58,547 nt of DNA from a phage. The stretch lies in NCBI GenBank assembly GCA_027568095.1, contig GCA_027568095.1_4956.1, one strand, 5' to 3'. The notes under the pieces were generated by a model. The model saw only the letters and a program-made list of their open reading frames with translations, did not search any database and was not told where the DNA came from. Made by a program: the position numbers and the translations under genes. Positions 3,525 through 47,248 of the stretch are shown in pieces (within the stretch, counting starts at the first letter, position 1; every line of letters starts with the position of its first letter).

Positions 3525-3728
3525 ATGATTGTTAAGTGTTCAGGTTTTACAAAAATTGCAGACCGTTACCGCGAACTATTTACGGTGGGTAAATGTTATC
3601 TGGTAGACCAAAAGTCTGAAAAAGTTTTCGACGACAACAGAAAACCACAACCATTCGATTTTGAAAAATTAGCTGTCAACGGTACACCCGGAATATACGT
3701 TCACTTCCAGAATATCGCCCGGAATTAA
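3525..3728 (+). CDS. hypothetical protein (67 aa)
   Basis: GAGGG RBS; stop codon lies in loop of a GCCCGG/CCGGGC hairpin. Confidence 0.45.
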   Translation: MIVKCSGFTKIADRYRELFTVGKCYLVDQKSEKVFDDNRKPQPFDFEKLAVNGTPGIYVHFQNIARN

Positions 3729-37416: not shown

Positions 37417-37452
37417 TGTTCTAAGCCTCGTTTGATTGCAATCATTCGTAGT

Positions 37453-37878
37453 TTAATATATTTCTTCGTATTCGTAACTAAGTACGACGTTCGTTAAAAA
37501 CCACGCGTTATCACGACCCTGATGACGAATATCAACACTCGTGTAAATTAACGGGCGGTCCTGCCAGACACCTTCAAATAATTTTGCAAGCCGATCCGCA
37601 ATGTCAATGCTTAAAGTGTCCATGCCATACTGAGCAGGCGTGCGTACCTGTAAAAAAACGTTTCCTGTTCTTAAACGACGGCGACAAACACCTTCCCCAC
37701 CCAGCGTGGTTATTGTCCACGGACCGGGATTATGTGTCAGAATCAGACCGGGTTTTTCTGTAGTGTCATCAGGGAGTTGACCAGAAGCAATTGTAAATCT
37801 GTCAGGCGTAATTTCCACGGGGAGGTTCGCCAGAACGCGATTATAAACAATTCCTGAAACATCTGAGAGTGTCATCAC
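37453..37878 (-). CDS. tail terminator-like protein
   Basis: Position immediately upstream of major tail gene. Confidence 0.4.
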   Translation of the reverse strand: MMTLSDVSGIVYNRVLANLPVEITPDRFTIASGQLPDDTTEKPGLILTHNPGPWTITTLGGEGVCRRRLRTGNVFLQVRTPAQYGMDTLSIDIADRLAKLFEGVWQDRPLIYTSVDIRHQGRDNAWFLTNVVLSYEYEEIY

Positions 37879-38345
37879 TGATTAAACCTCACCATTATTC
37901 CGGCTTTTAATATAGCACGTTCGACAAACCCGGAAGGTGTCTGTGTACTGCTACCACCATTGAGAACCCCAATGTAAGGAGCGTTGTTAGTAATATGCAG
38001 TTCCTGACCATTAACTTTAATACTGCTGATAGTGACCGTATCCTGTTCGATACGCGCTTTACTGGCTTCAACATTACCTGTTGGTGTATCAGGACTATTA
38101 GCGGGTTGTCCCTGATCGAACCACCAGTTGTTGCTTGCCCAGCCTGTATCCACAGGTGTACCGTCAGGTGGTTCACTGACAAGAATATTACGTAACGTCA
38201 AGACATACCGGATGACTTCACGATCGGTAAAATCTCGCAGGTCAGCTTTAATGTCCTTAAAGACACCTGTTATCCGGTTTATATCGTTAACGTTAGCCTT
38301 AGCCATATCAGGCCGCTCCAACAGGGTGAATAAATGCCATATCAT
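37875..38345 (-). CDS. tail completion/neck protein
   Basis: Position in head-tail joining cluster. Confidence 0.4.
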   Translation of the reverse strand: MIWHLFTLLERPDMAKANVNDINRITGVFKDIKADLRDFTDREVIRYVLTLRNILVSEPPDGTPVDTGWASNNWWFDQGQPANSPDTPTGNVEASKARIEQDTVTISSIKVNGQELHITNNAPYIGVLNGGSSTQTPSGFVERAILKAGIMVRFNQ

Positions 38346-38685
38346 CCCCTAACAATCGTGGGTTTTGACGATCAAGAAGGCGATATTCTTTACCACGTTC
38401 ATCAACCACAACATCACCCCGATCAGGAACAAATCGTGGTTCAAAACTCTGACTATCCATAATTACCATCGTTGTGGTTATTCTGGTCATAGTAGTCGGA
38501 TCCCACTTTTCTAATGGGTAAATATAACCACGACAGGTGTGTGATTCAGTAACGGTTGTACCCGGTAATGTAGGATTAGACGGGTTGGGAACTGTTGTCA
38601 CACGTTTTACCGTCAAATCCTCACCTACTTCAGCAAGTGCACGAGTAACACCGTTCAGGACACTTTGACGTTTGTCTGTCATCAC
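38308..38685 (-). CDS. head-tail connector protein
   Basis: Position. Confidence 0.4.
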   Translation of the reverse strand: MMTDKRQSVLNGVTRALAEVGEDLTVKRVTTVPNPSNPTLPGTTVTESHTCRGYIYPLEKWDPTTMTRITTTMVIMDSQSFEPRFVPDRGDVVVDERGKEYRLLDRQNPRLLGDDMAFIHPVGAA

Positions 38686-39093
38686 CGTTCACCCTCGTTA
38701 AGTGCACGACCACCGCTTTCAAGTGTTACAGGTGGGTTGTCGAACTGACCACGTTGAATAGCAGGTTGCATACCAGCGCCAGTTAATGTAGCTCCACCAA
38801 CACCCATAAAACTACCTAACAAACCGCCACCTGAATCAGCGCCAGTATTAATACGTAAAATAAAATCTTTTTTAAGTTTATTCCAGGCGTCTGCTGACTG
38901 ACTACTGCTGAGTGAGATCGGACCTACTTTAATATCAGTATCGTTGCTGGCAATAGACGCCATATAATCACAGAGAGCGACGCAAATACTGAGAGGATTT
39001 GTATAACCGTTGTCAATGTACCACTGAATTTGTTCATCAGTAACATCAGGGACACTGATCAAATAACGAATACCTTCAACTGTAATAGCCATG
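38682..39093 (-). CDS. head-tail adaptor protein (start at MAITVEG)
   Basis: AGGTGA RBS 4 nt upstream of ATG 39093; track ORF extension to 39266 would read through an intrinsic terminator. Confidence 0.4.
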
Positions 39094-43613: not shown

Positions 43614-43642
43614 AGGGTAGTTGTGTCGGTGTAATCCGTCAA
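43614..43642 (-). promoter_or_regulatory. conserved-family promoter (TTGACG-17-TACCCT)
   Basis: Reverse complement of 43637-43655 is AAAATAATTCTTGACG. Confidence 0.5.
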
Positions 43643-43941
43643 GAATTATTTTACGTATAGATTCATGGGAAGTATGCGACTCCCTATACCTTTTAAACCT
43701 CTCCTACTTGCAGCAACTTTTACTACTTATACTACTCTTCTGTTTATCTATGTTTATTATGTTTTCTATAAAAAGAATAAGATAGAGAGGGGTTGGTTAA
43801 AAAATAAACATGACGAAATCTATGAATTTATGATCTACTAATACAGATTCAGTATTAGCTGTAACTCAAAATCATGAAACCCATGTAAAACCATGTACAG
43901 TTAGTACACGTTCTGTATTAGCTGTATCTTTAAAATAATTC

Positions 43942-43970
43942 TTGACGGATTACAGACGGTAGGGTATCTT
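43942..43970 (+). promoter_or_regulatory. conserved-family promoter (TTGACG-17-TATCTT)
   Basis: TAAAATAATTCTTGACGGATTACA upstream of 44017 gene. Confidence 0.5.
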
Positions 43971-44415: not shown

Positions 44416-44796
44416 ATGAAGAAACTGATTCTATGCGCAATGTTAACAACCCTGACAGCCTGTGATAACGCTGCTGATGTTGCCAGTCGTAACGTTGCAA
44501 CCGCTGCAGCTAACTTTGAAGTAAATCGTCGTATCGTTTTCTATAACGTTCGTAACGGTGAGTATCTTTTGTCTATCGAAGGTCGTTGTGCCCGTGAGAA
44601 CACTAGCAAAGAGATCGAAATCACCTGTAAAACTGGTCCGAATGACGTTAAGAAACACTTTATGGGGTTAACCACGGAGGTAACTTATTTCATTGAACAA
44701 ACAGACCCTTCACCAACAGATCAGTATCGTTATCGTGTTACGTTTAACCCGATGCAAATTCTCCCGGATCTAAATATCCGTCACCCTGGGGAATAA
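44416..44796 (+). CDS. lipoprotein (signal peptide with lipobox LTAC)
   Basis: MKKLILCAMLTTLTAC N-terminus. Confidence 0.55.
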   Translation: MKKLILCAMLTTLTACDNAADVASRNVATAAANFEVNRRIVFYNVRNGEYLLSIEGRCARENTSKEIEITCKTGPNDVKKHFMGLTTEVTYFIEQTDPSPTDQYRYRVTFNPMQILPDLNIRHPGE

Positions 44797-44799
44797 CCC

Positions 44800-44901
44800 A
44801 TGGGTAAAAAGAAAAACGGTGAACTGGCGAAGAACTTCACACGTCTGGAAACCAACATCAAAATGTCTTATTGTCCGTTCTGCGGGGAGAAACAGGAATG
44901 A
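44800..44901 (+). CDS. small protein (33 aa) with CPFCG motif
   Basis: GGGGA RBS 8 nt upstream; below track cutoff. Confidence 0.3.
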   Translation: MGKKKNGELAKNFTRLETNIKMSYCPFCGEKQE

Positions 44902-45047
44902 CCATTGATAAGCGTAAAAAACGGCGTGCACATAGAAAAGCCGCTAAAAATCTTTTGAAAAATGGCGGTTTGTTTAACGGTTTTAGTGCCCCCGGTTCAA
45001 CGTTCTTCTGCATTGCTCAATGGCACTTAAAACAGTCGCGTGTTTAA
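44898..45047 (+). CDS. small basic protein (49 aa)
   Basis: ATGA overlap with upstream small ORF. Confidence 0.3.
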   Translation: MTIDKRKKRRAHRKAAKNLLKNGGLFNGFSAPGSTFFCIAQWHLKQSRV

Positions 45048-45068
45048 ACCAGAACAGGAGTAACAGCT

Positions 45069-45299
45069 ATGGGAATGAAACAAATATGGGATGGTAAAAA
45101 CCTTCCTCCCGTTGGTTGTGAAGTGTTGATCCATCTGGCAAGCATTAACAAGTGGGTGGCACGAACTGTTCAGGGTTATGAAATATGGCCTTCTGTTTAT
45201 GAAAACGATACTGCACATCACAGGATAAACATAAAATTTGAAGATAATGTTCGTCTGTTATGTGATGTGCGACCTCTTGACTGGCGTGAACCTGATTAG
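45069..45299 (+). CDS. hypothetical protein with WDGxxLPPVG motif
   Basis: AGGAG RBS; shares N-terminal motif with 49700..50179. Confidence 0.45.
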   Translation: MGMKQIWDGKNLPPVGCEVLIHLASINKWVARTVQGYEIWPSVYENDTAHHRINIKFEDNVRLLCDVRPLDWREPD

Positions 45300-45375
45300 C
45301 CCAATGAACCTATATCTTGCTTGACCACTTAACCTCCTGTTGCTAATATTGAGTTAAACAACAGGAGGTTTTATT

Positions 45376-46299
45376 TTGACTAAACGAAAAACAGAACATG
45401 AAAGACTTTCAGAGATTTCAGAAATTTGCAAAGGTACTATTTATCATTTTGTTAGATTCTTAAATGGTTACAAGAATGCATCAAGTAGACTAATAATGCA
45501 TTGTCAAAAACATGGTGAATGGGAAACATCCTCTGATTTGATAGTGAATGGTAGAAATTTTTGTAAGAAATGTAGTAATGAGAACATAGCACTAAAAAAT
45601 AGTATAGACCAAAAAGAATATGAAAAACGTATCACTAATATTTGTAACTCGCGAGGTTATAAATTTATAAAATGGATTGAAAATTATCATGGTGTTCGCA
45701 CAAAAGCATTAATAGAATGTACTAAACATGGTCAGTGGGTGTCTTCCGGCAACAACATTACTATAAATAAAAGTTTCTGTAAGAAATGTTATTTTGAAAA
45801 TAAAAAGACACCATTACATATAAGAGAAAAAGAGATAAATGAAAAATGTTTGTCATTAAATTATGAATTTTTGGGTTGGGTCAATGGGTATGTTAATCAA
45901 TACAGTAAGATAAAAATTAAATGTCAAAAACATGGTGAATTTATAACAACACCTACAACATTATTACATACTGGCAGACGTTGTGCAGGTTGCGCTACAA
46001 CAGGTTTTAAAATCAAAAACAAAGCTAGCTTATATGTTTTAAGATCTCTATGTGGTAGTTATGTTAAAATAGGTATTAGCAACAATGTTGAAAATAGAAT
46101 AAAAATATTGAAGAAAAGAACACCTTTCGAATTCAATGTTATTGAAATATATAATTCTGATGGTAAAACCATTCGTTCACTTGAAAAAGATTTTCATTCT
46201 CATTTTGAGTCAGCAGAGTTGACTGGGTTCGATGGTTGTACTGAGTGGTTAAAATGGAATCCAAATATAACCACTCTAATACGTATAATCACGGGATAA
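45376..46299 (+). CDS. GIY-YIG/T5orf172-like nuclease domain protein with three Cys-rich repeats
   Basis: C-terminal LYVLRS...YVKIGIS...R...E pattern; three CxKHGxW...CKKC repeats; visibly AT-rich. Confidence 0.5.
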   Translation: MTKRKTEHERLSEISEICKGTIYHFVRFLNGYKNASSRLIMHCQKHGEWETSSDLIVNGRNFCKKCSNENIALKNSIDQKEYEKRITNICNSRGYKFIKWIENYHGVRTKALIECTKHGQWVSSGNNITINKSFCKKCYFENKKTPLHIREKEINEKCLSLNYEFLGWVNGYVNQYSKIKIKCQKHGEFITTPTTLLHTGRRCAGCATTGFKIKNKASLYVLRSLCGSYVKIGISNNVENRIKILKKRTPFEFNVIEIYNSDGKTIRSLEKDFHSHFESAELTGFDGCTEWLKWNPNITTLIRIITG

Positions 46300-47248
46300 C
46301 ATTTATATCTTGAGGGAGAGAATAAGCAACCCTGCAACGGCAATTAATCACATTCGCTGCACTACCGTTAGGATCACGAGGGAACATAAGTGGTCCTAAC
46401 GGCGTTGAAAACGGTCTGTCCATTGGTATCCAACCATTCGTTTCACCTGTGGAAATATGCGCGTCACGTGTCCGACCATCCTTCCTATACAACCAACGTT
46501 TTAATAATTCATTACTGATCGACCCCGTAACCTGACCCTGACGAATAGCCTGGTCCTGACCAACGGATATAGCACGAAGTGATTCAGTACGCGCTATTGT
46601 CTCTGTACGCTGTTTTACGTAACGCAAGCGTGTCTGTTCGATTATCTGGTCAATCTTCGCCTGTGATAGTTTCCCGGCACTTACAGCGTTCTTTGCACTG
46701 TCTGTAACAGTGGTCAGACTATTCACATAACCTGCTTCACCTTTTTCCAGTGCTGATCGCAGACGTTGAACCGTCATTTCCTGCCGTGTGGTTAACCCTA
46801 TTGATGATCGAAAATCACGGGCTATCTGACGCGGATTTCGTCCAGTTACCACACCTTGGTTAACAGCAATCTGAACAGCTTTGACTGTTTCGTCACTGAC
46901 TTCACGGATCAGTTGTCCGACATAATTGTTGATGTATGTACTGACCTGTGGGGTGACCAGACTGAACACAACCGGACCTGTTACAGCCGCTTTCGGTAGA
47001 ACCTGAACGACTACACGACCTGATTCGGCGATCGCATCTTCAATAACCGGGCGCAACTGTGCACTAAGTTCATCAGGGAGTGTTTCAAGAATGGGAAGTA
47101 ATCCGGCAATACCCTGAGTTTCAATGATGTATTCCAGGTTAGCTAACGACTCACTACGACGCACGTTTTCCCACACGACATCAAGTGCTTCGCGAATGCG
47201 AGCGTCATACTTGTCTGAAATATCCGGGTATGGGTCTTTAGTAGCCAT
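46289..47248 (-). CDS. head morphogenesis protein (Mu F-like position)
   Basis: 319 aa between portal and scaffold genes. Confidence 0.45.
   Translation of the reverse strand: MATKDPYPDISDKYDARIREALDVVWENVRRSESLANLEYIIETQGIAGLLPILETLPDELSAQLRPVIEDAIAESGRVVVQVLPKAAVTGPVVFSLVTPQVSTYINNYVGQLIREVSDETVKAVQIAVNQGVVTGRNPRQIARDFRSSIGLTTRQEMTVQRLRSALEKGEAGYVNSLTTVTDSAKNAVSAGKLSQAKIDQIIEQTRLRYVKQRTETIARTESLRAISVGQDQAIRQGQVTGSISNELLKRWLYRKDGRTRDAHISTGETNGWIPMDRPFSTPLGPLMFPRDPNGSAANVINCRCRVAYSLPQDINVIP

What the first reader, a model, noticed from the sequence alone, without database searches (positions are those of the whole stretch)
45376..46299. AT-rich GIY-YIG/T5orf172-like nuclease gene with three Cys-rich repeats, overlapping the end of a head gene
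The C-terminal 90 residues match the GIY-YIG-related T5orf172 pattern (LYVLRS...YVKIGIS...R...E), preceded by three tandem CxKHGxW...CKKC modules (likely zinc-binding DNA-recognition repeats). The gene is visibly more AT-rich than its surroundings and its 3' end overlaps the convergent head-morphogenesis gene, consistent with a recently acquired homing-endonuclease-like element.
Basis: partly seen in the sequence, partly recalled or inferred. Interest (0 to 1): 0.4.

Follow-up and report, generated by a model that had tools for sequence, protein, structure and literature searches.

The report
Free-standing T5orf172 homing endonuclease gene
This is a selfish "homing" nuclease gene of an already described phage family, inserted into the last codons of a head-assembly gene; related phages carry the untouched site, the occupied site or a deletion scar, which points to where the nuclease probably cuts.

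Summary
ORF 45376..46299(+) encodes 307 aa from a TTG start. It has three CapR-type zinc modules and a C-terminal T5orf172/MUG113 (GIY-YIG-fold) nuclease domain. Its GC is 29% against 43% for the window, and it overlaps the convergent Mu-F-like head gene by 11 nt.

The window is a 9NA-like (Nonanavirus/Sashavirus) coliphage. The locus occurs in three states among relatives:
- **Naive:** at least 14 phages or contigs lack the gene and keep an invariant head-gene 3' end, AAACTGTACTGTACCC.
- **Occupied:** every carrier has a 993-bp cassette between TATATCTTG repeats, plus a 17-bp, mostly synonymous, recoded patch directly beside it. This holds in both an E. coli and a Klebsiella lineage.
- **Scar:** four contigs have lost about 923 bp of the gene but keep its last ~77 nt and the patch.

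The gene is under purifying selection (dN/dS 0.11). It is also more similar between two coliphages than their flanks are (p = 7e-6).

Best reading: an active free-standing homing endonuclease that cuts the naive head-gene end, with carriers protected by the patch. The cassette brings a promoter-like site and a hairpin that sequesters its Shine-Dalgarno sequence.

This architecture was described by Barth, Dunham and Seed (2023), so it is a new member of a known kind. Cleavage and homing are untested.

The parts
45069..45299 (+). Conserved 76-aa ORF of unknown function (PHROG 26831). It forms the left homology arm. In naive phages its stop overlaps the stop of the head gene by 4 nt.
45296..45318 (-). 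Relic of the ancestral head-gene 3' end (codons ...D I G S L G stop), now non-coding and stranded to the left of the insert.
   Evidence: Alignment with empty sites. The relic is also present in the Klebsiella-lineage carriers.
45311..45319 (.). Left copy of the 9-bp direct repeat TATATCTTG that brackets the insert. Eight of its nine bases, TATATCTT, occur once in the naive site.
   Evidence: (D12, spacing 993).
45321..45349 (+). Sigma-70 promoter-like site carried by the cassette: TTGACC, 17 nt, TAATAT, with TG at -15/-14. The -10 hexamer lies in the hairpin loop.
   Evidence: 9 of 12 matches, but the number of such sites in the region is no greater than chance. Both hexamers are kept in KP13-27 as TTGACT and TAGTAT.
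45331..45370 (+). RNA hairpin with 12-bp arms, AACCUCCUGUUG and CAACAGGAGGUU. The 3' arm contains the Shine-Dalgarno AGGAGG (45363-45368), and a U-rich tract follows.
   Evidence: I3. Free energy -19.5 to -21.2 kcal/mol, z about -3.4. The arms are identical in the Klebsiella lineage although the loop differs. An RNA starting at 45355, a few nt downstream of the predicted -10, folds no better than shuffled sequence.
45376..46299 (+). Homing endonuclease gene, 307 aa, TTG start.
   Evidence: (PHROG 681 'endonuclease', 8e-66).
45406..45576 (+). CapR-type zinc module 1 (aa 11-67). Inferred ligands C43, H46, C63, C66.
45619..45789 (+). CapR-type zinc module 2 (aa 82-138). Inferred ligands C115, H118, C135, C138.
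45823..45996 (+). CapR-type zinc module 3 (aa 150-207). Inferred ligands C183, H186, C203, C206.
46021..46296 (+). T5orf172/MUG113 nuclease domain with a GIY-YIG fold (aa 216-307). Y220, K231, G233, R241 and E290 are invariant.
46223..46303 (+). The 3' part of the gene that survives in the deletion-scar alleles. It includes the 11 nt that now encode the end of the head protein.
46289..46299 (.). The 11-nt antisense overlap. The new head-protein end (N V I P stop) is encoded by cassette DNA, partly opposite the last codons of the endonuclease gene.
46304..46312 (.). Right copy of the 9-bp direct repeat TATATCTTG.
46312..46328 (-). Recoded patch in head-gene codons 307-313 (V A Y S L P Q here, V Q Y S L P E in naive phages). 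Twelve of its 17 nt differ from the naive sequence (46303 is the 13th carrier-specific site). It is the proposed immunity determinant; the corresponding naive sequence CTTC[CT]GG[CT]AAACTGTACTGTACCC is the proposed target.
   Evidence: No naive-type site occurs anywhere in the window.
46289..47248 (-). Head morphogenesis gene (Phage_Mu_F / SPP1 gp7-like). It is the host gene and forms the right homology arm.

Best explanation
The ORF is a free-standing homing endonuclease gene of the T5orf172 type. It is not encoded in an intron or an intein. It sits in a 993-bp AT-rich cassette inserted into the last codons of the head-morphogenesis gene of a 9NA-like coliphage.

Shown here:
- The protein has three CapR-type zinc modules (C-x2-H...C-x2-C) followed by a GIY-YIG-fold nuclease domain with conserved Arg241 and Glu290.
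- The cassette is present in some relatives and absent from most.
- Every carrier, and every deletion scar, has a 17-bp recoded stretch of the head gene directly beside the insert.
- The gene is under purifying selection.
- The gene is more similar between two coliphages than their flanking DNA is.

Inferred:
- During mixed infection the protein binds the naive head-gene end (about CTTCCGGCAAACTGTACTGTACCC) through its zinc modules, and the nuclease domain cuts there.
- The broken genome is repaired from the carrier genome. The 76-aa ORF plus relic serves as the left homology arm, and the head gene beyond the patch serves as the right arm. Cassette and patch are therefore copied together.
- Carriers do not cut themselves because the patch destroys the site.
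- Expression is kept low. The start codon is a weak TTG. A hairpin pairs the Shine-Dalgarno sequence in read-through transcripts and may also terminate them. A promoter whose -10 lies in the hairpin loop would give transcripts that lack the 5' arm and can be translated, as described for I-TevI, SegB and MobE.
- Because cassette DNA now supplies the last four codons and the stop of the essential head gene, the element cannot be removed cleanly. This would explain why the scar alleles keep its last ~77 nt.
For: Domains and fold.

Sporadic presence at one site. Carriers are the window, PDP46, KP13-27, L012-L017, L020, L021 and L028. Naive sites are Bas82, AVIO78A, 536P12, PJ16, BDX09P1, SP069, Sasha, 9NA, Carvaje and L024-L026.

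The substitutions specific to carriers are confined to 46303-46328: 13 sites in those 26 nt. SNPs beyond that point are mosaic and unlinked to the gene. The patch has the same boundaries in the Klebsiella lineage, whose flanks are otherwise lineage-specific.

The patch changes five codons synonymously, including a serine switch from AGT to TCT. It also carries one amino-acid change (Q to A) shared by both lineages and a second (E to Q) in the coliphage lineage only.

No allele combining the gene or its remnant with a naive site was found in any collection scanned.

dN/dS is 0.11 in both the DNA-binding and the nuclease parts, over dS of about 1.

Cassette plus patch differ at 7 of 1009 positions between the window and PDP46, against 35 of 1000 in the adjacent head gene (Fisher p = 7e-6).

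Four deletion scars share one junction.

Hairpin and promoter.

Literature: the T5orf172 nuclease Odn cleaves DNA in vitro, and changing the conserved Glu abolishes this (PMC8263062). The CapR zinc domain binds DNA, and mutating its four Cys abolishes binding (PMC8096241). T5orf172 genes with repeated CapR-type modules cluster near essential phage genes (PMC10448857). RBS-sequestering hairpins with internal promoters are described for T-even endonuclease genes (PMC2988022).
Against: - No cleavage or homing has been shown for this protein. According to PMC10448857, homing has not been verified experimentally for the ICP1 T5orf172 genes either.
- The patch could be DNA carried along from the original donor rather than an immunity determinant. 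Linkage alone cannot separate these readings.
- Gene and head gene show similar divergence between the two lineages (81.0% and 78.6% nt identity). That also fits long vertical residence with repeated loss.
- The promoter match is only 9 of 12, and such matches are no more frequent in the region than in shuffled sequence.
- The hairpin arms show no compensatory changes, because they are invariant.
- A paralogous gene at another site has no such hairpin.
- The equivalence of R241 and E290 to the I-TevI catalytic residues could not be established by profile alignment.
Confidence: 0.72

Rival explanations
1. The gene is a nuclease kept because it benefits the phage, not because it homes. It might cut competing phages or satellites, as ICP1 Odn does, or exclude markers of co-infecting relatives. 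Its position beside the head gene would then be incidental.
For: Purifying selection on both domains (dN/dS 0.11) fits a beneficial function equally well. A T5orf172 nuclease with a swapped DNA-binding domain does serve as an anti-satellite weapon (PMC8263062). There is a weak match to a PADLOC candidate defence family.
Against: Most close relatives do without the gene, and four contigs have deleted it. The tight association with a recoded stretch of the phage's own essential gene is what self-targeting avoidance predicts. Marker exclusion and homing are in any case the same mechanism seen from two sides (PMC2988022).
Confidence: 0.13
2. The gene is a homing endonuclease, but the 17-bp patch is only a fragment of donor DNA from the original insertion. 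The true recognition site would lie elsewhere, for example spanning the insertion point so that the insert itself disrupts it, or further into the head gene.
For: Free-standing T4 endonucleases often cut hundreds of base pairs from their gene (PMC2988022). The AGT-to-TCT serine switch and a three-base codon change look more like imported sequence than stepwise mutation.
Against: Recombination has scrambled every other flanking polymorphism, starting within 5 bp of the patch. Yet the patch stays linked to the gene or its remnant in two lineages separated by dS of about 1. That persistence calls for selection. The naive counterpart is invariant at synonymous sites across phages only about 77-80% identical (head-gene identities), as expected of a homing target.
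Confidence: 0.2
3. The protein acts mainly as a DNA-binding regulator, CapR-like or like I-TevI autorepression. It would bind near the convergent gene ends or at its own promoter, with nuclease activity lost or irrelevant.
For: The CapR domain was first characterised in a transcriptional repressor derived from such endonucleases (PMC8096241). The retained left half of the old site lies immediately upstream of the -35 hexamer.
Against: The nuclease domain is intact. Its motif residues are invariant and it is under the same purifying selection as the binding domain (dN/dS 0.10). CapR itself lacks the nuclease domain.
Confidence: 0.05

Closest known systems
T5orf172 homing endonuclease genes with repeated CapR/DUF723/DUF4379 zinc-finger modules (ICP1 gp165, gp130, gp174 and others; T5-like, Plateaulakevirus and VpaJT-like phages), described by Barth, Dunham and Seed 2023 (PMC10448857)
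   Same: N-terminal tandem CapR-type zinc modules followed by a C-terminal T5orf172 domain. Free-standing and AT-rich. Placed beside an essential structural gene. Sporadic among relatives. Shows shuffling between paralogues.
   Different: The host group is 9NA-like siphoviruses of Enterobacteriaceae. I did not find this group named in the parts of that paper I read. Here the empty site, the occupied site, the recoded patch and a deletion scar are all available, so a specific target can be proposed.
Free-standing GIY-YIG endonucleases of T4 (SegA to SegG), which show 'intronless homing' (PMC2988022)
   Same: Intergenic or gene-end placement, targeting of a neighbouring conserved gene, co-conversion of adjacent sequence, and tight control of expression.
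   Different: The domain order is reversed: in the Seg proteins and I-TevI the nuclease is N-terminal. The DNA-binding modules are different. The proposed target lies 0-25 bp from the insert rather than hundreds of base pairs away. The gene is convergent with its target gene and overlaps it.
I-TevI, I-TevII, I-TevIII, T4 SegB and Aeh1 MobE translational control (PMC2988022)
   Same: A hairpin pairs the ribosome-binding site in read-through transcripts, and a promoter inside the hairpin region would give translatable RNA.
   Different: The promoter here is sigma-70-like rather than a T4 late promoter. The whole arrangement is predicted, not mapped.
ICP1 Odn (gp88), an origin-directed T5orf172 nuclease (PMC8263062)
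   Same: T5orf172 nuclease domain with conserved Arg and Glu, and modular targeting through a separate N-terminal DNA-binding domain.
   Different: Odn uses a RepA_N domain and attacks a satellite. This protein uses CapR modules and appears to target an allele of its own phage's head gene.
PLE CapR repressor (PMC8096241)
   Same: The zinc-dependent DNA-binding domain family (PF21817).
   Different: CapR is a single domain without a nuclease and has a CxxC...CxC motif. Here there are three modules with CxxH...CxxC, fused to a nuclease.

Membership tests
T5orf172 / MUG113 domain (Pfam PF10544, PF13455; GIY-YIG clan) | Profile score above the curated gathering threshold | tested here: met
   MUG113 scores 45.5 bits against a cut-off of 22.3. 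T5orf172 scores 27.2 bits against 20. Both on the isolated C-terminal 98 aa.
GIY-YIG nuclease superfamily | GIY-YIG fold: a beta-hairpin carrying the two motifs, then a helix with the catalytic Arg | tested here: met
GIY-YIG nuclease superfamily | Conserved catalytic Arg and Glu | tested here: inconclusive
   R241 and E290 are invariant in 16 homologues, and R241 lies in the first helix after the hairpin. Residue-level equivalence to I-TevI R27 and E75 could not be shown: hhalign probability was 0.9%, using an I-TevI sequence recalled from memory. The equivalence rests on the published T5orf172 alignment in PMC8263062.
GIY-YIG nuclease superfamily | Site-specific DNA cleavage | not testable with these tools
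   Needs purified protein and naive or patch-bearing substrates.
CapR homology domain (PF21817) | Profile score above the gathering threshold for each repeat | tested here: met
   35.6, 37.0 and 34.4 bits against a cut-off of 24.2, with each module scanned alone.
CapR homology domain (PF21817) | Four zinc ligands, given as CxxC...CxC in CapR (PMC8096241) | tested here: inconclusive
   Three Cys per module are invariant (C43/C63/C66, C115/C135/C138, C183/C203/C206). The second ligand position is His here (CxxH) and varies among homologues. Zinc binding was not tested.
Homing endonuclease gene (functional class) | Presence/absence polymorphism at one defined site among close relatives | tested here: met
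Homing endonuclease gene (functional class) | Site altered in carriers and intact in non-carriers | tested here: met
   The 17-bp patch is perfectly associated with the gene or its remnant in two lineages. That the patch is the recognition site is inferred.
Homing endonuclease gene (functional class) | Evidence of horizontal spread: the element is more similar than its flanks | tested here: met
   7 of 1009 against 35 of 1000 differences, window versus PDP46, p = 7e-6. Between the E. coli and Klebsiella lineages the gene and the flank diverge equally, so spread across that gap is not shown.
Homing endonuclease gene (functional class) | Above-input inheritance in mixed infection | not testable with these tools
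   Requires phage crosses.
Intron- or intein-encoded endonuclease | The ORF lies within a self-splicing element of the host gene, on the same strand | tested here: not met
   The gene is on the strand opposite the head gene and lies beyond its 3' end. It is free-standing.
Hairpin-plus-internal-promoter control (I-TevI, SegB, MobE type) | A stable hairpin pairs the ribosome-binding site | tested here: met
   A 12-bp stem includes AGGAGG. Free energy -19.5 to -21.2 kcal/mol, z -3.4. Conserved in KP13-27. This is a prediction only.
Hairpin-plus-internal-promoter control (I-TevI, SegB, MobE type) | A promoter inside the hairpin gives transcripts that lack the 5' arm | tested here: inconclusive
   TTGACC-17-TAATAT has its -10 in the loop and is conserved in both lineages. 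However, consensus matches in the region are at chance frequency and no transcription start is mapped.

The most novel reading that the evidence does not exclude
The naive, occupied and scar alleles together identify the natural target and immunity sequence of a CapR-module T5orf172 endonuclease. In the literature I could search, no such enzyme has a mapped target or verified homing.

If the 24-bp naive head-gene end is cut and the patch protects, this phage group would become a tractable system: Bas82 is a naive, cultivable partner and PDP46 a cultivable carrier. It could be used to read how tandem CapR zinc modules specify DNA sequence.

It would also allow a test of whether an element that supplies the last codons of an essential gene makes itself hard to delete.
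Probability: 0.5. Interest if true: 0.45.

Novelty: new member of a known kind. Interest (0 to 1): 0.32.

Why it matters
T5orf172 genes with tandem CapR-type zinc modules are common in phages. A tblastn search found relatives in 786 phage records, mostly from Vibrio, Escherichia, Salmonella, Klebsiella and Aeromonas phages. They are still called homing endonucleases only on genomic grounds (PMC10448857).

This locus gives a concrete, cheaply testable prediction: a 24-bp substrate, a natural resistant variant and a natural deletion derivative, with cultivable phages on both sides. The result would not change how homing is understood. It would supply a first target for this enzyme type and a clear example of the invasion, fixation and decay cycle in a siphovirus structural gene.

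Tried and rejected
- **PDB sequence search:** a profile of 16 homologues found no meaningful relative.
- **Foldseek against PDB:** nothing at E <= 0.001. Only SLX1 had a useful probability. Weak matches of the tandem alpha-beta-beta-beta-alpha modules to tandem dsRBD proteins are not significant.
- **NCBIfam and PADLOC:** NCBIfam gave no hit. PADLOC gave one weak partial hit to PDC-S57, which I did not take as evidence of a defence role.
- **Terminator scan:** it reported none, because the hairpin loop exceeds the tool's 8-nt limit. A terminator role for the hairpin is therefore only suggested by the U-tract.
- **Generality of the hairpin:** it is absent upstream of the 43%-identical paralogue in L018.
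- **Paralogues in the window:** none.
- **Naive-type target in the window:** none within 3 mismatches.
- **Genome collection scan:** the gene-end/junction sequence gave no hits, so there is no sign of it in bacterial genomes.
- **Intron or intein origin:** rejected on strand and position.
- **Recent acquisition from outside the phage group:** not supported between lineages, since the gene and the head gene diverge equally between the E. coli and Klebsiella lineages.
- **The 9-bp flanking repeat:** not significant as a repeat, since 13 families of at least 9 bp occur in 1.25 kb. It matters only because it coincides with both junctions defined from the empty sites.
- **9NA genomics paper (PMC6819911):** not held in the library.
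Full report
**1. The observation**

The region 45376..46299 on the + strand is an open frame of 307 codons starting with TTG. AGGAGG lies at 45363-45368, seven bases upstream. The N-terminus aligns with the N-termini of homologues, so the TTG start is credible.

Pfam finds three stretches of the CapR homology domain (PF21817, E 8e-23). At residues 225-297 it also finds MUG113 (PF13455, 5e-11) and T5orf172 (PF10544, 2.6e-5). Scanned separately, each of the three modules exceeds the CapR gathering score (35.6, 37.0 and 34.4 bits against 24.2). The C-terminal 98 residues exceed both nuclease-domain cut-offs. PHROGs places the protein in phrog_681, 'endonuclease' (8e-66).

Module 3 reads CQKHGEF...CAGC. 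The modules are 27-34% identical to one another and show at the DNA level as a repeat with spacings of 216 and 204 nt (D1).

The gene is 29.4% GC with GC3 of 20%. The window as a whole is 43.3% and the neighbouring head gene 47.3%.

Its last 11 nt overlap the 3' end of the convergent gene 46289..47248(-). That gene is a Phage_Mu_F / SPP1 gp7-like head-morphogenesis gene.

**2. The protein**

A search of the large protein collection returned 20 relatives. All carry the same combination of CapR/DUF723/DUF4379 and MUG113/T5orf172 domains.

In an alignment of 16 of them, three Cys per module are invariant. So are L219, Y220, S224, K231, G233, I234, S235, R241, E270, T289, E290 and W291 in the nuclease domain.

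An AlphaFold model built from that alignment has mean pLDDT 85. Its low pTM of 0.46 is as expected for independently folded modules on a string. Each zinc module is helix, three strands, helix. The C-terminal domain is a beta-hairpin, a helix carrying R241, a strand, a helix, and so on.

The CapR domain is a zinc-dependent DNA-binding domain; mutating its four Cys abolishes binding (PMC8096241). T5orf172 genes with several such modules, located near essential phage genes, were catalogued by Barth, Dunham and Seed (PMC10448857).

**3. Genomic setting and the empty site**

The window is a 9NA-like (Nonanavirus/Sashavirus) coliphage. Its closest records are Escherichia phages PDP46, KarinMuster_Bas82, 536P12, AVIO78A and PJ16, at 96-98% identity.

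PDP46 has the gene (99.3% aa identity) and the other four do not. In Bas82 and AVIO78A a conserved 76-aa ORF ends 4 nt inside the end of the head gene.

Alignment of the junctions shows the following:
- The window carries 993 extra bases between two copies of TATATCTTG, at 45311 and 46304.
- Eight of those nine bases (TATATCTT) occur once in the empty site.
- The ancestral end of the head gene (codons G S L G stop) is stranded to the left of the insert as a non-coding relic at 45296-45318.
- The head protein now ends N V I P stop, encoded by cassette DNA, partly opposite the last codons of the endonuclease gene.

**4. The target-site signature**

All nine naive reference phages read ...ATATCTTC[CT]GG[CT]AAACTGTACTGTACCC... 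at the head-gene end, encoding R V Q Y S L P E D I G S L G. These phages come from Escherichia, Salmonella and Klebsiella and are only about 77-80% identical in this gene.

All carriers read ...ATATCTT[GC][AT]GG[GA]AGAGAATA[AG]GC[AG]ACCC..., encoding R V A Y S L P Q/E D I N V I P.

In an alignment of seven coliphages, the positions where the two carriers differ from all five non-carriers are 13 sites within 46303-46328, plus one isolated site at 46999. From 46333 onwards the polymorphisms are mosaic and unrelated to the gene. The window and PDP46 themselves differ at 46333, 46340 and 46352.

The patch has the same outer boundary (ACCC) in the Klebsiella-lineage carrier KP13-27. Downstream of the patch, KP13-27 is identical to the naive Klebsiella phage Carvaje.

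The patch replaces five codons synonymously, including Ser AGT to TCT and Leu TTG to CTC. It changes Q to A in both lineages, and E to Q in the coliphage lineage only.

No naive-type site exists elsewhere in the window.

A short recoded stretch that stays linked to the gene while recombination scrambles everything around it is what a self-cleavage immunity determinant should look like. This is an inference, not a demonstration.

**5. A third allelic state**

Scanning IMG/VR for the patch, and metagenomes for the gene-end/junction sequence, gave these results:
- More carriers: L020, L021 and L028.
- Four contigs with a deletion scar: L022, L023, L030 (a 54.8-kb contig) and L031. In these the stop of the 76-aa ORF (...CCTGATTAA) is joined directly to CTGGGTTCGATGG..., the last ~77 nt of the endonuclease gene (window about 46223 onwards), followed by the patch and an intact head gene.

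All four scars share the same junction, so they descend from one deletion of about 923 bp.

These alleles show three things:
- The nuclease is dispensable for the phage.
- The patch outlives the gene.
- The part of the cassette that supplies the head-protein end is retained.

Scanning for the naive sequence gave three more naive contigs, plus 9NA itself. No allele combines the gene or its remnant with a naive site.

**6. Selection and mobility**

Between the coliphage copy and the KP13-27 copy, dN/dS is 0.11 (0.11 in the DNA-binding part, 0.10 in the nuclease part) at dS of about 1. The head gene gives 0.06. The protein is therefore maintained by selection and is not a decaying relic.

Nucleotide identity between these two lineages is 81.0% for the gene and 78.6% for the head gene. 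The element is therefore old at this site, and no recent jump between the lineages is indicated.

Between the window and PDP46, cassette plus patch differ at 7 of 1009 positions, against 35 of 1000 in the adjacent head gene (Fisher p = 7e-6). This fits recent spread of the cassette onto different coliphage backgrounds, or a sweep with flanking recombination.

The 80%-identical version occupies the same site in all six places shown of the 17 contigs that carry it.

A 43%-identical paralogue occupies a different site, between tail genes, in Salmonella 9NA-like phages. That site has no such gene in the window.

**7. Expression signals carried by the cassette**

Immediately inside the left junction lie TTGACC (45321-45326) and, 17 nt on, TAATAT (45344-45349), preceded by TG.

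A 12-bp inverted repeat, AACCTCCTGTTG at 45331-45342 and CAACAGGAGGTT at 45359-45370, pairs the Shine-Dalgarno sequence. TTTTATTTT follows it.

As RNA, the hairpin folds at -19.5 to -21.2 kcal/mol with z about -3.4. An RNA starting at 45355, a few nt downstream of the predicted -10, folds no better than shuffled sequence.

In KP13-27 and the metagenomic copies both arms are identical while five loop positions differ, and both hexamers are kept as TTGACT and TAGTAT.

This matches the arrangement reviewed for I-TevI, I-TevII, I-TevIII, SegB and MobE (PMC2988022).

The limits of this evidence are:
- Promoter-like matches are at chance frequency in the region.
- The arms show no covariation.
- No transcription start is mapped.
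- The paralogue in L018 lacks a hairpin.

**8. Most likely mechanism**

The zinc modules bind the naive head-gene end and the GIY-YIG-fold domain cuts there. The break is repaired from a co-infecting carrier genome, which copies the cassette and patch together. Carriers are immune because of the patch. Expression is restrained by the TTG start and the hairpin.

The parts list, distribution, patch linkage, selection and scar alleles are shown here. Binding, cutting, the exact target, homing and the regulatory logic are inferred.

The rival readings are scored in the rivals section: a beneficial nuclease, a patch that merely hitch-hiked, and a regulator.

**9. Comparison with known systems, and verdict**

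The architecture, family, genomic habits and paralogue shuffling all match the T5orf172/CapR endonuclease genes already described (PMC10448857). This is a new member of a known kind.

What is added here is the host group, a fully resolved insertion site, a candidate target and immunity pair, a natural deletion scar and a candidate control element.

In the searchable literature I found no experimental verification of homing, and no mapped target, for this enzyme type. The locus is therefore a good experimental entry point.

Interest is modest, at 0.32.

Noticed in passing
window 46160-46290, compared with L018 3760-3897: The last ~130 nt of the endonuclease gene are 92-97% identical at the nucleotide level to the 3' end of a paralogue. 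That paralogue (P0011, 43% aa identity overall) sits at a different site, in the tail module of Salmonella 9NA-like phages. The rest of the two genes is only 30-60% identical. This looks like recent gene conversion or domain shuffling between paralogues.
   Followed up: partly
L018 3001-3897; 9NA KJ802832 21718-22506; equivalent window region about 37450-38700: This phage group has a second T5orf172/DUF723 endonuclease site, between tail/neck genes and on the opposite strand. It is occupied in 9NA and some Salmonella contigs. No such gene is present in the window.
   Followed up: partly
window 43630-43653 and 43931-43954: A perfect 24-nt inverted repeat, TGTAATCCGTCAAGAATTATTTTA and its complement, with 277 nt between the arms. 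It lies in the intergenic region between divergent gene blocks and is conserved in relatives. Each arm contains TTGACG, so these may be paired divergent promoters or operators. A 33-nt direct repeat (43839 and 43902) lies between the arms.
   Followed up: no
window 44416-44796 (+): This ORF matches Pfam Phage_VG64 and PHROG 478, annotated 'recombination directionality factor'. It begins MKKLILCAMLTTLTAC, which looks like a lipoprotein signal peptide with a lipobox. The RDF label therefore seems doubtful.
   Followed up: no
window 44800-45068: The block of small ORFs to the left of the cassette is a mosaic with indels among close relatives. The window lacks about 325 bp that Bas82 has, and PDP46 has extra ORFs. 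Divergence from PDP46 here rises to 34-48 differences per 200 nt.
   Followed up: partly
L028 (CYGL01002343.1) 1-330 and 3531-3700: This carrier contig has inverted copies of the gene remnant, patch and head-gene end at its ends, with a different junction (at about aa 276). It is either an assembly chimera or a second, independent deletion allele. This was not resolved.
   Followed up: partly
window 45376-46020 (protein aa 1-215): Each CapR module is predicted as helix, three strands, helix. Foldseek's weak, non-significant top matches are tandem dsRBD proteins (Loqs-PB, R2D2, TRBP). No solved structure of this DNA-binding domain was found.
   Followed up: no
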